DNA from: Nitrospirae bacterium GWC2_56_14
GTDB taxonomy: Bacteria; Nitrospirota; UBA9217
Reading direction: 5' to 3'
DNA: 32,374 nucleotides
NCBI GenBank assembly: GCA_001803705.1
Contig: MHDY01000247.1
Coordinates: 1-32,374, forward strand
Shown here: piece by piece, positions 7,578 through 14,125 of the stretch
Layout: every line of letters begins with the position of its first letter
How positions within the stretch are numbered: position 1 is the stretch's first letter
Notes under the pieces: generated by a model
Database searches by the model: none
What the model saw: only the letters and a program-made list of their open reading frames with translations
Told to the model about the DNA's origin: nothing
Position numbers and translations under genes: made by a program

Positions 7578-7655
7578 TGGCGTCCCCAGCGGGATTCGAA
7601 CCCGCGTTATCGCCGTGAAAGGGCGGTGTCCTGGGCCAGGCTAGACGATGGGGAC
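7578..7655 (-). tRNA. tRNA-Glu (anticodon TTC)
   Basis: GTCCCCATCGTCTAG...CT-TTC-AC...GGTTCGAATCCC...GGGGACGCCA cloverleaf with encoded CCA. Confidence 0.97.
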
Positions 7656-7680: not shown

Positions 7681-7756
7681 TGGTGAGCCGGCTGGGACTC
7701 GAACCCAGGACACCCGCCTTAAAAGGGCGGTGCTCTACCAACTGAGCTACCGGCCC
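7681..7756 (-). tRNA. tRNA-Lys (anticodon TTT)
   Basis: GGGCCGGTAGCTCAGTTGGTAGAGC...CT-TTT-AA...GGTTCGAGTCCC...CCGGCTCACCA, 76 nt. Confidence 0.97.
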
Positions 7757-12361: not shown

Positions 12362-12482
12362 GAAAATAATACGATGACACCGGGCGCCCCGGGGACAGGG
12401 GAGAAAGAAGACGCCAGGAAGAACAGCGCTTTCCGCACGCTTTCCCTTTCACCGTACAGCGGCCGGCCGGAGAACCGGACCC

Positions 12483-12893
12483 CTACGGCAGGGGTTTCCG
12501 GATAATGTCCATGGTCATAACGATCGTCCGCACCGGATTTATGCGGTCATTGGAGTAGATGGATATTTTCTTTACCAGGATACCGCCCCTGCCGGTGGTG
12601 TCCACCGTTGCCTGTATGCGGCCGGAGTCTCCCGGTTCAAGGTGATTAGAACTAATCACCGCGGCTGCGCAGCCTCAGGAAGGCTGGACCCGCTCAATAT
12701 CGAGCGCGGCATCTCCGGTGTTCCTCACCTCGAACACATGCTGCAGTTTGGCCCCCTCGACAACCTTGCCGTAGTCGTAGGTCGCCTCTTTGATCTCTAT
12801 CTGGGGCCCCTTCTGTTCCTGGGCCCAGAGCGGCTGGGCGAGAAAACCCGCTGCCACCGCCGCGAGCATGATCGCAAACACCTGTTGTTTCAT
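12483..12893 (-). CDS. DUF1573-family exported protein with in-frame UGA (selenocysteine, S-U-G-C motif), 136 aa
   Basis: RBS AAGGAG; signal peptide; YDYGKV..HVFEVRNTGDAALDIERVQPS-UGA-GCAAAVISSNHLEPGDSGRIQATVDT..KKISIYSND..TAG; the domain continues in frame past UGA (codon 73, 12675-12677). Confidence 0.85.
12641..12674 (-). promoter_or_regulatory. Candidate bacterial SECIS element
   Basis: Directly 3' of UGA: GGCU-GCGC-AGCC, then GGUGAUUA-GUUC-UAAUCACC (8 perfect bp, loop starting GU about 23 nt after UGA). Confidence 0.7.
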
Positions 12894-12928
12894 GGTATAA
12901 CTCCTTTTTCCGTCCGTCAGCACGGGCA

Positions 12929-13342
12929 TCACTCGCCCATGACCTTGACCAGAATTTCTTTTTCGCGCATGCCGTCGAACTCTGCATAATACACCGTCTG
13001 GTACACGCCCAGATCGAGCGCCCCTTCGGTCACCGGAAGCGTCAGGTTGTGGCCGGACAGGAGCGACATGAGATGCGCCCGGCCGTTCCGCCTGGCATCG
13101 GTAAGGTCATGCTTATACTCGCCGGCAGGAACGATCCTCTCCATGAGGCCCATGAAGTCCTCGGTCAGCGTTGCGTCCGAATCGCTCACGTAGACCGATG
13201 CGCTGGTGTGGTGCGGGAAGAGCAGGACCATTCCGTCCTGCACACCGCTCTTCGCGATGATCTGGGACACTTCCCGGGTGATGTCCCGGATCTCCCGTTT
13301 GTCTGCAGTCGTTATCCTGATAAAGTCCCGGTAGGTCTTCAT
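12929..13342 (-). CDS. yjbQ: YjbQ / UPF0047 family protein
   Basis: IRDIT, HTSAS, YKHD...NGRAHL and LGVYQ.VYYAEFDG.R motifs; ends VMGE. Confidence 0.93.
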   Translation of the reverse strand: MKTYRDFIRITTADKREIRDITREVSQIIAKSGVQDGMVLLFPHHTSASVYVSDSDATLTEDFMGLMERIVPAGEYKHDLTDARRNGRAHLMSLLSGHNLTLPVTEGALDLGVYQTVYYAEFDGMREKEILVKVMGE

Positions 13343-13361: not shown

Positions 13362-14042
13362 CTACAACCCGATCTTCTTTTGGTAGATCATCTTGACCAG
13401 GTCCTCGCGGTTAATGATATTTTTTTCTATCAGCAGGGTGATAAGCGCATCAAGGCGGAGACGGTCATCCTGGGACTGGCGGGAAGCCTCGTCCTGAGCT
13501 GCCGTCGCAACCTGCACCTCATTGCTGCTCGTCATGAGGTCGCTTCCGAAGATGGTCTCCATTTTGCCCGTTTTTACGAACGAGACCTCTTTCGGTTTAC
13601 GGACCACTTCTTCGCCGTCGTAATATTTTCTGATGGCGTCATTGATCTCGGACTCCAGCGCCAGCGCCGGCTTGACCATAAGGCCCGTGCAGAACCTGAG
13701 GTCGTCAATGGCCTCCATATCCATCGGGTCGGACATGGCGATCACGATCGAGCTCCCCTCTTTCCTGACCGGCACGACCCCGTATTTCTTTGCCACATCG
13801 ACCTTGATAAGCGAGACCGATGCCGCCGGAATTTCAGGATCGAACAGATTCACATAGGGGATGCCCATTTTTTCTGCGATCACCCTGGCAAGCTCCTCCT
13901 CGCGAATGAATTCCATTTCAACGAGGATGGAGCCCAGTTTGCCCCCCCAGTTCCGCTGGTGCGACAGCGCCGTCTGGAGCTGAAAGTCATCGATGAGGCC
14001 GGCTTCTTTCAAAAAATCACCGAGCTTTTTCTTTTCAGCCAT
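13362..14042 (-). CDS. Stand-alone MshEN / T2SSE_N domain protein (putative c-di-GMP receptor, no ATPase)
   Basis: Tandem KLGDFLKEAGLI...LQTALSHQ and KLGSILVEMEFI...L motifs; AKKYGVVPV..IAMSDP; no Walker A. Confidence 0.85.
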   Translation of the reverse strand: MAEKKKLGDFLKEAGLIDDFQLQTALSHQRNWGGKLGSILVEMEFIREEELARVIAEKMGIPYVNLFDPEIPAASVSLIKVDVAKKYGVVPVRKEGSSIVIAMSDPMDMEAIDDLRFCTGLMVKPALALESEINDAIRKYYDGEEVVRKPKEVSFVKTGKMETIFGSDLMTSSNEVQVATAAQDEASRQSQDDRLRLDALITLLIEKNIINREDLVKMIYQKKIGL

Positions 14043-14095: not shown

Positions 14096-14125
14096 ATTAT
14101 AAGCTACGGACGCAAGGGATGTCAA
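14096..14125 (-). promoter_or_regulatory. Consensus sigma70 promoter of the MshEN-yjbQ-DUF1573 operon
   Basis: TTGACA-N18-TATAAT; downstream direct repeat TATCACAATA at 14053-14062 and 14071-14080. Confidence 0.75.

What the first reader, a model, noticed from the sequence alone, without database searches (positions are those of the whole stretch)
12483..12893. Hidden exported selenoprotein: DUF1573-family gene read through an in-frame UGA with a SECIS-like hairpin
Seen: the ORF track stops at ...IERVQPS (UGA at 12675-12677), but the frame continues for 63 more codons (GCAAAVISSNHLEPGDSGRIQATVDTTGRGGILVKKISIYSNDRINPVRTIVMTMDIIRKPLP) to TAG at 12483. A perfect hairpin GGUGAUUA-GUUC-UAAUCACC follows the UGA, with its GU-starting loop about 23 nt downstream. 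It uses AT-rich codons (ATT AGT TCT AAT) atypical of neighbouring genes. Known: DUF1573 domains carry S-C-G-C-T then (I/L)xPGxxGx(I/L) and SND, so the UGA falls exactly on the first Cys. Bacterial SECIS elements lie immediately 3' of the UGA with a G early in the apical loop. Inference: a Sec-containing U-x-C, signal-peptide-bearing Ig-like protein that standard callers would split or call a pseudogene. I cannot verify whether Sec forms of this family are already catalogued.
Basis: partly seen in the sequence, partly recalled or inferred. Interest (0 to 1): 0.88.

Follow-up and report, generated by a model that had tools for sequence, protein, structure and literature searches.

The report
Selenocysteine DUF1573 gene, already-known kind
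This is a genuine small exported selenoprotein gene whose in-frame UGA is read as selenocysteine with the help of a conserved RNA hairpin, but the protein family was already catalogued as a selenoprotein, so it is a solid annotation fix, not a discovery.

Summary
A minus-strand gene (12483-12893) has an in-frame TGA at 12675-12677, 63 further sense codons and a perfect 8-bp/4-nt hairpin starting 14 nt after the UGA.

It is a real selenoprotein gene. The read-through product is one DUF1573 Ig-like domain. All 24 stop-bearing homologues examined have the TGA in the same column, and distant homologues have Cys there. In the window's own taxonomic family, 22 of 22 genomes with a match carry a TGA copy. 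The hairpin covaries (5 of 8 pairs) and meets the published bacterial SECIS rules. dN/dS downstream is 0.14-0.34.

The host is a 74.6%-complete Nitrospirota MAG. It has tRNA-Sec and a second conserved selenoprotein gene. selA, selB and selD were not found in it but are present in 5 of 5 relatives.

Novelty is low. "DUF1573 domain-containing protein, motif UGC" (originally OS_HP2, 2007) is listed in reviews from 2022 and 2026. What is new is modest. This Nitrospirota clade scores below NCBIfam's OS_HP2 cutoff, and the public protein collection holds it only as fragments ending at the UGA. Its function is unknown.

The parts
12483..12893 (-). Complete selenoprotein gene: 136 codons including UGA(Sec)73, plus the TAG stop at 12483-12485
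   Evidence: sequence and translation. (DUF1573, 2.7e-22, across residues 32-122). (orthologues with one TGA).
12901..12906 (-). Shine-Dalgarno-like AAGGAG, 7 nt before the ATG at 12891-12893
   Evidence: Read directly; pattern only.
12822..12893 (-). Putative Sec-translocon signal peptide (residues 1-24), with an inferred cleavage after L-W-A
   Evidence: Inference from the sequence. The model shows an N-terminal helix at residues 4-18 with low pLDDT. The hydrophobic stretch followed by x-A-Q-E recurs in homologues. No signal-peptide predictor was run.
12528..12800 (-). DUF1573 / HYDIN-VesB-like Ig domain (residues 32-122), interrupted by the UGA
   Evidence: AlphaFold model with pLDDT 87.8 and an eight-strand sandwich. 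Best PDB match is 2qsv.
12669..12677 (-). U-G-C motif (codons 73-75); the Sec codon UGA is at 12675-12677
   Evidence: Sec/Cys, Gly and Cys are invariant in 30 of 30 aligned homologues. The motif sits in the turn between strands 64-71 and 76-80 of the model.
12641..12660 (-). Bacterial SECIS hairpin: 8-bp stem and GUUC loop, with the loop starting 22 nt after the UGA; it encodes V-I-S-S-N-H
   Evidence: -8.2 kcal/mol. (covariation). (first loop Ser codon is AGT in 26 of 27 distinct Sec forms). (published constraints, all four met).
12411..12441 (-). Two overlapping terminator-like stem-loops about 45-70 nt after the stop codon
   Evidence: consensus scan only: 3 sites found against 1.9 expected, so this is weak.
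12929..13342 (-). Upstream UPF0047 gene on the same strand, 35 nt away; it ends in a genuine TGA stop
   Evidence: Seen at this position in 8 of the 39 relatives' loci scanned (about 6 genomes).
13362..14042 (-). Upstream MshEN-domain gene on the same strand; a conserved neighbour across the family
14096..14125 (-). Perfect sigma-70 consensus (TTGACA, 18 nt, TATAAT) upstream of the MshEN gene; a possible promoter for MshEN-UPF0047-DUF1573
   Evidence: a 12 of 12 match; pattern only.

Best explanation
The gene at 12483-12893 (minus strand) encodes a 136-residue selenoprotein.

Recoding. During translation, the hairpin at 12641-12660 acts as a bacterial SECIS element. SelB carrying Sec-tRNA(Sec) binds its G-U-starting apical loop and delivers selenocysteine to the UGA 22 nt upstream, so the ribosome continues for 63 more codons instead of stopping. 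This step is inferred from conservation, not shown physically.

Product. It is a single DUF1573 Ig-like beta-sandwich behind an N-terminal signal peptide, so it is probably exported to the periplasm by the Sec translocon (inferred).

Chemistry. The U-G-C motif sits in a turn between two strands. I think the most likely chemistry, at roughly 45%, is a redox-active selenylsulfide/selenol-thiol couple of the CxC type, because Sec/Cys exchange between homologues is the usual signature of a catalytic redox cysteine. Soft-metal or metalloid binding is the main alternative, at roughly 25%. The remainder is unknown.

Classification. The family was already catalogued as a selenoprotein (OS_HP2, now listed as DUF1573 with motif UGC). 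This gene is a member of a Nitrospirota-wide single-domain clade that current annotation models miss.

The confidence given (0.92) is for the recoding claim, that this is a genuine Sec-encoding gene with a SECIS element. It does not cover the chemistry.
For: Shown by computation:
- The full-length read-through is one DUF1573 domain, and the two halves each match their half of the model.
- In relatives, 27 of 39 listed matches have exactly one TGA, and 22 of 22 same-family genomes with a match carry such a copy.
- In the 24 TGA forms examined, the TGA is in the same column ([ST]-U-G-C). Six phylum-level relatives and 64 loci from other phyla have Cys there.
- The hairpin recurs in the 24 Sec forms: 90.6% of cells are paired, 5 of 8 pairs change on both sides, and 0 of 500 shuffles reach the score. 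No equivalent hairpin is seen in the Cys forms.
- The compensatory changes link amino-acid changes (I to V, N to D) with synonymous changes on the opposite arm.
- The first Ser codon of the loop is AGT in 26 of 27 distinct Sec forms. AGT is 6.3% of Ser codons genome-wide and occurs in 1 of 9 Cys forms that have Ser-Ser at the same place.
- All four printed bacterial SECIS constraints are met.
- dN/dS downstream of the UGA is 0.14-0.34 in 10 same-genus pairs.
- tRNA-Sec with anticodon UCA is in this genome: 63.2 bits against a threshold of 47, and ARAGORN agrees.
- selA, selB and selD are present in 5 of 5 relatives tested, two of them from the same genus.
- The same MAG has a second selenoprotein gene, a rhodanese with the TGA at the active-site position in 6 of 6 loci examined.
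- TGA is an ordinary stop for the adjacent UPF0047 gene.
- The literature lists DUF1573 with motif UGC as a selenoprotein family.
Against: - selA (PF03841), selB (PF09107) and selD (TIGR00476; the best hit is a ThiL-like protein) were not found in the window's own genome. The assembly is only 74.64% complete in 259 contigs, so this is weak evidence against.
- Three common selenoprotein families in this genome (FdhA, FlpD/MvhD, NiFe hydrogenase) carry no in-frame stop.
- The single-sequence fold z-score is only -1.94.
- The closing A-U pair of the stem is unpaired in 10 of 24 sequences, so the loop is often 6 nt.
- There is no physical evidence of selenium incorporation.
- Nothing supports the functional part directly. 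Gene neighbourhoods are housekeeping genes in all three lineages examined. The only solved relative, 2qsv, lacks the CGC motif. The four DUF1573 papers found by the search were seen only as a listing (two of them also as table passages), and those showed nothing on function.
Confidence: 0.92

Rival explanations
1. The TGA is a recent nonsense mutation or an assembly or sequencing error, making this a pseudogene, and the downstream frame is a decaying remnant.
For: The genome is a fragmented MAG (259 contigs, 74.64% complete). It does contain at least one such private TGA: an APH-family gene on contig C44 whose 18 matches in 17 other genomes have no stop.
Against: The TGA is in the same column in 24 of 24 stop-bearing homologues examined, which come from independently assembled genomes of many genera. 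In the phylum survey, 63 of 101 listed matches carry one TGA (my hand count). Downstream dN/dS is 0.14-0.34. The APH control shows what a private TGA looks like, and this case is the opposite.
Confidence: 0.01
2. Translation really stops at the UGA and yields a 72-residue exported peptide. The hairpin serves another purpose (attenuator, stability element or pause site), and the downstream ORF is translated separately, for example from the GTG at 12659, or not at all.
For: the ORF listing does give a 58-aa ORF from a GTG inside the hairpin (12483-12659). A terminator-like pattern overlapping the region was flagged at 12673-12658.
Against: The UGA cuts a single Ig-like domain between strands, and neither half would fold alone. 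Cys forms are continuous through this point. The hairpin occurs only where there is a TGA and never in Cys forms. It fits all the SECIS rules. There is no Shine-Dalgarno sequence before the internal GTG.
Confidence: 0.03
3. The UGA is read through without selenocysteine, by near-cognate suppression (Trp or Cys) or by a lineage-specific code in which UGA is a sense codon.
For: selA, selB and selD were not found in this MAG.
Against: TGA ends the adjacent UPF0047 gene and the rhodanese genes of relatives, so it is a normal stop. A tRNA-Sec gene is present. Five of 5 relatives have the full Sec machinery. The UGA aligns with Cys, the expected partner of Sec. A structured SECIS is conserved immediately downstream.
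Confidence: 0.03
4. This is a real selenoprotein, but the U-G-C site binds a soft metal or metalloid (Cu, Hg, As or similar) in the periplasm and does no thiol-disulfide redox chemistry.
For: The reviews' tables place the DUF1573 family beside predicted metal-handling selenoproteins attributed to the same 2007 source: MerT-like, a cation-transporting ATPase and a putative mercuric reductase. That CxC motifs bind metals in other proteins is recalled knowledge, not tested here.
Against: There are no metal-resistance or metal-transport genes in the neighbourhoods of Nitrospirota, Binatia/deltaproteobacterial or Ignavibacteria homologues. No additional invariant His, Cys or Met is evident: the invariant columns are Gly, Leu, Asp and Pro plus the motif.
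Confidence: 0.25

Closest known systems
DUF1573 domain-containing selenoprotein (PF07610, motif UGC). First reported as OS_HP2 from the Olavius algarvensis symbiont metagenome (Zhang and Gladyshev 2007, PMC1976440); listed in PMC9312934 (2022) and PMC13188914 (2026).
   Same: The same Pfam domain, the same U-G-C motif with Sec in the first position, Cys homologues in the same column, and a stem-loop immediately downstream of the UGA.
   Different: The source is a Nitrospirota MAG, where the original came from deltaproteobacterial symbionts. It scores 83.9 bits against NCBIfam's OS_HP2 model, below the 100-bit cutoff, and 0 of 201 Nitrospirota genomes surveyed reach that cutoff. So it is probably a sister clade. 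I could not retrieve the original OS_HP2 sequences or the accessions printed in the reviews to compare them directly.
Cys-form DUF1573 proteins of Ignavibacteria, Binatia, Myxococcota, Bdellovibrionota and some Nitrospirota families
   Same: The same domain, the same S-C-G-C-T-A-A-V core and the same downstream P-G and S-N-D motifs, at 30-45% identity.
   Different: They have Cys where this gene has Sec, and no downstream hairpin. The two representatives scanned with Pfam are two-domain proteins of 238 and 365 aa, against a single 136-aa domain here.
E. coli fdhF-type bacterial SECIS and the consensus bSECIS model
   Same: A hairpin within the coding sequence just 3' of the UGA; a small apical loop beginning G-U; spacing within 16-37 nt; and MFE at or below -7.5 kcal/mol.
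   Different: The loop sequence (A)GUUC is specific to this family and is encoded by a fixed Ser-Ser pair (AGU UCN). SelB binding was not tested.
2qsv, an uncharacterised Porphyromonas gingivalis protein and the only solved sequence relative
   Same: An Ig-like, PapD/ASH-like sandwich. Foldseek E = 5.2e-07, TM 0.67 normalised to the query, rmsd 2.0 over 107 columns. Profile match E = 9e-06.
   Different: It lacks the CGC motif at the aligned position, so it says nothing about the active site.

Membership tests
Bacterial selenoprotein gene (SelB/SECIS-dependent UGA recoding) | An in-frame UGA aligned with Cys in homologues, with sequence conservation on both sides | tested here: met
   the same column holds TGA in 24 of 24 stop-bearing forms examined and Cys in 70 other forms. 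Both halves match DUF1573.
Bacterial selenoprotein gene (SelB/SECIS-dependent UGA recoding) | A downstream stem-loop that meets the consensus bSECIS constraints: loop of 3-9 nt, upper stem of 4-16 bp, G in the first two loop positions, 16-37 nt from the UGA, MFE at or below -7.5 | tested here: met
   The constraints come from the PMC13188914 Fig. 2 legend. Here: 4-nt loop GUUC, 8 bp, 22 nt, -8.2 kcal/mol. Covariation is seen in 5 of 8 pairs. bSECISearch itself was not run.
Bacterial selenoprotein gene (SelB/SECIS-dependent UGA recoding) | Purifying selection on the sequence downstream of the UGA | tested here: met
   dN/dS is 0.14-0.34 over the 52 downstream codons in 10 same-genus pairs, against 0.07-0.65 upstream.
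Bacterial selenoprotein gene (SelB/SECIS-dependent UGA recoding) | The host genome encodes selA, selB, selC and selD | tested here: inconclusive
   selC was found. selA, selB and selD were not found in this 74.64%-complete MAG. All three are present in 5 of 5 relatives, including 2 of the same genus. A second conserved selenoprotein gene is present in the MAG.
Bacterial selenoprotein gene (SelB/SECIS-dependent UGA recoding) | Selenium physically incorporated at the UGA position | not testable with these tools
   Needs 75Se labelling or mass spectrometry.
Pfam PF07610 (DUF1573) | Score at or above the gathering threshold (26.1 bits) | tested here: met
   79 bits, residues 32-122 against model positions 1-91 of 98.
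Catalogued DUF1573 selenoprotein family (reviews PMC9312934 and PMC13188914) | PF07610 domain with the Sec-containing motif U-G-C | tested here: met
NCBIfam NF041425, OS_HP2 family (seleno)protein | Score at or above the curated cutoff (100 bits) | tested here: not met
   83.9 bits; the best of 30 homologues reaches E = 5.9e-25; 0 of 201 Nitrospirota genomes are over the cutoff. It is the closest NCBIfam model, but this clade lies outside its trusted range.
Exported (Sec-translocon) protein | A cleavable N-terminal signal peptide | not tested
   Judged by eye from the sequence and the alignment.

The most novel reading that the evidence does not exclude
The Nitrospirota single-domain Sec-DUF1573 proteins are a distinct, phylum-wide and so far unannotated subfamily. 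In them, the U-G-C turn on an Ig-like sandwich would be a catalytic periplasmic selenylsulfide centre: a CxC-type oxidoreductase built on a non-thioredoxin fold. They would be kept in one transcription unit with a c-di-GMP-type MshEN-domain protein. If so, the roughly 100-residue DUF1573 domain, which is widespread in Bacteroidota, Ignavibacteriota, Planctomycetota and others, would acquire its first assigned chemistry.
Probability: 0.3. Interest if true: 0.55.

Novelty: new member of a known kind. Interest (0 to 1): 0.3.

Why it matters
The practical value is for annotation. In the public protein collection searched, the only near-length versions of this gene found are 74-85-residue stumps. 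NCBIfam's only selenoprotein-aware model for the family does not reach its cutoff in any of the 201 Nitrospirota genomes surveyed. Yet the Sec form is nearly universal in the window's family, being found in 41 of the 44 other genomes surveyed. It also occurs in about ten other Nitrospirota families. A lower cutoff or a new model would recover these genes.

Biologically, this is a clean example of an RNA structure shaping a protein sequence. The V-[IV]-S-S-[ND]-[HR] segment and its rare AGU codon are held in place by the SECIS element. It also marks the first Cys of the DUF1573 CGC motif as probably redox-active, which gives a starting point for a domain of unknown function.

It does not change what is known about selenocysteine decoding or about the list of selenoprotein families.

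Tried and rejected
- **Pseudogene or sequencing error.** Rejected on conservation. The contrast is a private TGA in an APH-family gene of the same MAG.
- **Alternative genetic code.** Rejected because TGA ends neighbouring genes.
- **Rfam.** At gathering thresholds the window gave only two tRNAs and no SECIS family hit.
- **Function from context.** The Nitrospirota synteny is PP-loop ATPase, MshEN, UPF0047 (present in some genomes only), DUF1573, class-V aminotransferase, SerA. The neighbourhoods of Cys forms in the Binatia/deltaproteobacterial loci (aroQ, accB, accC, mfd) and in Ignavibacteria (PglZ response regulator, tsaE, tsaB, accD) are housekeeping genes. None gives a redox or metal partner.
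- **Function from structure.** The fold is a generic Ig/PapD/ASH sandwich, and the only solved sequence relative lacks the motif.
- **Function from the literature.** Four papers hold both "DUF1573" and "domain". I saw them as a search listing only (two of them also as table passages), and nothing seen there bears on function.
- **A second selenoprotein through common families.** FdhA, FlpD and NiFe hydrogenase in this genome have no in-frame stop.
- **My own crude TGA/SECIS scan.** It gave 155 candidates after the coding filter and 29 with a hairpin. I tested 22 of the 28 candidates other than the finding with Pfam; 20 had no family and look like antisense frames. The other 6 were not examined.
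- **Comparison with true OS_HP2 members.** Not achieved. No protein over the NF041425 cutoff was ever retrieved, and I had no confirmed Desulfobacterota handle.
- **Taxonomic spread of Sec forms.** The genome-contig scan used one pattern that requires Cys, so its result of 16 TGA loci, all Nitrospirota, out of 80 cannot show that Sec forms are confined to Nitrospirota.
- **Not attempted.** No tree was built. Read-level or expression evidence was not sought. Supplementary tables of PMC9312934, PMC13188914, PMC1976440 and the BSepDB paper PMC13326102 may already list Nitrospirota DUF1573 selenoproteins. The BSepDB main text has no occurrence of DUF1573, Nitrospir or OS_HP2.
Full report
**Observation.** On the minus strand, an ORF starts at the ATG at 12891-12893, preceded by AAGGAG at 12901-12906. 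It runs 72 codons to a TGA at 12675-12677, then stays open in the same frame for 63 more codons to a TAG at 12483-12485. Fourteen nucleotides after the UGA lies a perfect hairpin: an 8-bp stem (12653-12660 with 12641-12648) and the loop GUUC (12649-12652). Alone it folds at -8.2 kcal/mol. The hairpin is built from codons that are rare in this genome: AGT is 6.3% and TCT 6.8% of Ser codons, and ATT is 18.6% of Ile codons. By itself the fold is not very unusual: z = -1.94, and 9 of 200 shuffles fold as well.

**What the protein is.** Read through with Sec, the 136-residue product matches Pfam DUF1573 across residues 32-122 (79 bits, cutoff 26.1). It also matches the related HYDIN/VesB Ig-like model. 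The fragment before the UGA matches model positions 1-41 and the fragment after it matches 43-91, so the UGA interrupts a single domain. An AlphaFold model built on 30 homologues is confident (mean pLDDT 87.8). It shows an eight-strand Ig-like sandwich behind a low-confidence N-terminal helix. Its nearest solved structures are 2qsv (an uncharacterised Porphyromonas gingivalis protein), HYDIN PapD-like domains and the Ig domains of the Vibrio VesB and VesC proteases. The N-terminus has a Lys-containing start, a hydrophobic run and then L-W-A/Q-E. It looks like a Sec-translocon signal peptide, and the x-A-Q-E motif recurs in homologues. This is an inference by eye, since no predictor was available.

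**Comparative test of recoding.** I ran a six-frame search of 41 genomes (the window's own plus 40 relatives) with stops read through. It gave 39 matches: 27 with exactly one TGA, 11 with no stop, and one partial match with a TAG. Every one of the 22 same-family genomes that had a match carried a TGA copy. I extracted 30 of these loci. In all 24 stop-bearing ones the TGA is in the same column, [ST]-U-G-C-[TAS]-A. The six without a stop, from other families of the phylum, have [SP]-C-G-C-T. Sec/Cys, Gly and Cys of the motif are invariant in 30 of 30 aligned sequences. A scan of named genomes returned 80 loci. Sixteen had TGA, all from records titled Nitrospirota, Nitrospirae or Nitrospiraceae. 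The other 64 had TGC or TGT and came from Ignavibacteria, Binatia, deltaproteobacterial, Myxococcota, Bdellovibrionota and other MAGs. One of the two search patterns required Cys, so this scan cannot show that Sec forms are restricted to Nitrospirota. A survey of 201 Nitrospirota genomes with NCBIfam's OS_HP2 model found matches in 88. By my hand count, 63 of the 101 listed matches carry one TGA and 38 carry none. TGA forms occur in the window's family (41 of 44 other genomes have a match) and in about ten further families. Five families have Cys forms.

**The hairpin is a conserved RNA structure.** On the 24 TGA forms, the eight proposed pairs are formed in 90.6% of cells, and 5 of 8 pairs show changes on both sides (22 cells). 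None of 500 column shuffles reaches the covariation score. Sliding the register by 1-3 nt drops pairing to 26-54%. The compensation crosses the protein/RNA boundary. An Ile-to-Val change on the 5' arm goes with a synonymous AAT-to-AAC change on the 3' arm. An Asn-to-Asp change on the 3' arm goes with a synonymous ATT-to-ATC change on the 5' arm. The loop nucleotides A-G-U-U-C are nearly invariant and are encoded by Ser-Ser. The first Ser is AGT in 26 of 27 distinct Sec forms, but in only 1 of 9 Cys forms that have Ser-Ser at the same place. Cys forms show no equivalent hairpin. The element meets all four constraints of the consensus bacterial SECIS model, as printed in the Fig. 2 legend of PMC13188914 (passages read): loop of 3-9 nt, upper stem of 4-16 bp, G in the first two loop positions followed by G or U, 16-37 nt from the UGA, and MFE at or below -7.5.

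**Selection.** In ten pairwise comparisons among the five same-genus genes, dN/dS over the 52 codons after the UGA is 0.14-0.34. Over the 40 codons before it, dN/dS is 0.07-0.65. The downstream half is therefore translated.

**Does the host decode Sec?** The window lies on contig C247 of a MAG of 3.16 Mb in 259 contigs, 74.64% complete. Its nearest named relatives are Nitrospirota MAGs. A tRNA-Sec gene is present on C143: 63.2 bits against Rfam's 47, and ARAGORN calls SeC with anticodon TCA. selA and selB were not found. The best selD-model hit is a ThiL-like protein below the cutoff. In five relatives, two of the same genus and three of the same family, selA, selB and selD are all present over their cutoffs. 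selD itself carries an in-frame TGA in each. FdhA, FlpD/MvhD and NiFe hydrogenase in the window's genome have no in-frame stop.

**A second selenoprotein and a negative control.** I scanned the genome for TGAs with coding potential on both sides and a downstream hairpin that obeys the SECIS rules. This gave 155 candidates, 29 of them with a hairpin, and the finding's gene ranked third. I tested 22 of the 28 others with Pfam. Twenty had no family, and two had a domain spanning the TGA. One is a rhodanese/rubrerythrin-like protein on C160. Its TGA is at the active-site position in all six loci examined ([AVC]-Y-U-[GAS]-S-G-V-R-S-R), and 8 of 10 matches in other genomes carry at least one TGA. 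This is a known kind of selenoprotein (rhodanese-like, UxxG; table in PMC13188914), and it shows a second conserved Sec gene in the same MAG. The other is an APH-family gene on C44. Its TGA is private to this MAG: all 18 matches in 17 other genomes have no stop, and five orthologues examined have Cys, Ser or Tyr at that position. That is what a nonsense mutation or assembly error looks like, and the DUF1573 case is the opposite.

**Rivals.** A pseudogene or sequencing error is excluded by the conservation. Termination with a separately translated downstream ORF is unlikely. The UGA splits one domain, Cys forms are continuous, and the hairpin is present only where there is a UGA. A sense-codon reassignment is excluded because TGA ends the adjacent UPF0047 gene. 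I put the selenoprotein reading at about 0.92.

**Function.** This remains inferred. Synteny is conserved across the family: PP-loop ATPase, MshEN-domain protein, UPF0047 (present in some genomes only), Sec-DUF1573, class-V aminotransferase, SerA. A perfect sigma-70 consensus lies upstream of the MshEN gene, and terminator-like stem-loops follow the DUF1573 stop (patterns only). That suggests a three-gene transcription unit, but none of these neighbours points to a chemistry. Cys-form homologues in other phyla sit among acc, aro, tsa and mfd genes. The only solved sequence relative lacks the CGC motif. The U-G-C lies in the turn between strands 64-71 and 76-80 of the model. Sec/Cys exchange is the usual mark of a redox-active cysteine (established knowledge in the selenoprotein field, recalled). 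I therefore favour an exported selenylsulfide/selenol-thiol redox centre of the CxC type, at about 45%. Soft-metal binding is the main alternative, at about 25%.

**What is known already.** NCBIfam holds a model named "OS_HP2 family (seleno)protein" (NF041425). The window's protein is its best NCBIfam match, but it scores 83.9 bits against a cutoff of 100. OS_HP2 was one of six new selenoprotein families reported from the Olavius algarvensis symbiont metagenome in 2007 (PMC1976440; I read section 12 and Table 2). Two review tables (PMC9312934 from 2022 and PMC13188914 from 2026; table passages read) list "DUF1573 domain-containing protein, PF07610, motif UGC", attributed to that 2007 paper (reference checked for the 2022 review only). 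That OS_HP2 and the DUF1573 entry are the same family is my inference. It rests on the tables' order, the shared source paper and the NCBIfam match. The family, the motif and the Sec position are therefore already in print. The main text of the BSepDB database paper does not mention DUF1573 or Nitrospirota. I could not see any supplements.

**What is left that is new.**
- The Nitrospirota clade lies outside NCBIfam's trusted cutoff: 0 of 201 genomes are over it, and the best of the 30 aligned homologues reaches E = 5.9e-25.
- Public gene calls hold it only as N-terminal stumps: all 7 hits are 74-85 aa and cover 53% of the query, and one is named "hypothetical protein".
- The Sec form is close to universal in the window's family.
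- The SECIS covariation and codon constraint are documented here.

**Verdict.** The gene is a new member, probably of a sister clade, of a known selenoprotein family. Interest is modest.

Noticed in passing
G000 contig C160:7782-8726 (+), locus L140/L153 (outside the window): A second selenoprotein gene in the same MAG: a 314-aa rhodanese (residues 50-140) plus rubrerythrin-like protein with a TGA at codon 108, on the rhodanese active-site Cys position. The TGA is in the same column in 6 of 6 loci examined, and 8 of 10 matches in other genomes carry at least one TGA. This is a known kind (rhodanese-like UxxG selenoprotein).
   Followed up: partly
G000 contig C44:4662-5741 (-), locus L151/L159 (outside the window): An APH-family phosphotransferase gene with an in-frame TGA at codon 109 that is private to this MAG. 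All 18 matches in 17 other genomes have no stop. Five orthologues examined have Cys (three of four same-genus genomes), Ser or Tyr there. Most likely a nonsense mutation or assembly error, though a very recent Cys-to-Sec change is not strictly excluded (my scan found a hairpin downstream).
   Followed up: partly
window 14096-14125 (-): A perfect sigma-70 consensus promoter pattern (TTGACA, 18 nt, TATAAT; 12 of 12) upstream of the MshEN-domain gene. It suggests that MshEN, UPF0047 and the selenoprotein gene are transcribed together.
   Followed up: no
window 12929-13342 (-): In one search's scan of 39 relatives' loci (which include duplicate fetches of some genomes), the UPF0047 gene between MshEN and the selenoprotein gene appears in only 8 loci, about 6 genomes. 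In the others the DUF1573 gene follows MshEN directly, so UPF0047 is a variable insertion in a conserved syntenic block.
   Followed up: partly
relatives G004, G005, G010, G014, G021: selD carries an in-frame TGA in all five relatives tested, so it is itself a selenoprotein in this family. In G004 selA is split across two frames with extra stops, and in G010 selD is split. These look like frameshifts or assembly indels.
   Followed up: no
L015/L050 and L049, L056 (relatives' loci): In some relatives' assemblies the flanking aminotransferase and SerA genes come back from tblastn as several abutting pieces, as if frameshifted. These are probably assembly indel errors. The DUF1573 TGA is nevertheless present there.
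   Followed up: no
window 7578-7655 and 7681-7756 (-): Adjacent tRNA-Glu(UUC) and tRNA-Lys(UUU) genes.
   Followed up: yes
G000 contig C143:10427-10525 (+), locus L004: The tRNA-Sec gene sits between a rhomboid-like membrane protein gene and multihaem cytochrome c genes, not next to selB. The 2026 review says selC overlaps selB in some Nitrospirae, but no selB is nearby in this locus.
   Followed up: no
L073, L076 (Binatia and Ignavibacteriota loci): Two representative Cys-form homologues from other phyla are two-domain proteins (DUF1573 plus a second DUF1573 or PapD-like domain, 238-365 aa). Each lies in a conserved housekeeping block: aroQ-accB-accC-DUF1573-mfd in one lineage, and PglZ response regulator-tsaE-tsaB-DUF1573-accD in the other.
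   Followed up: partly
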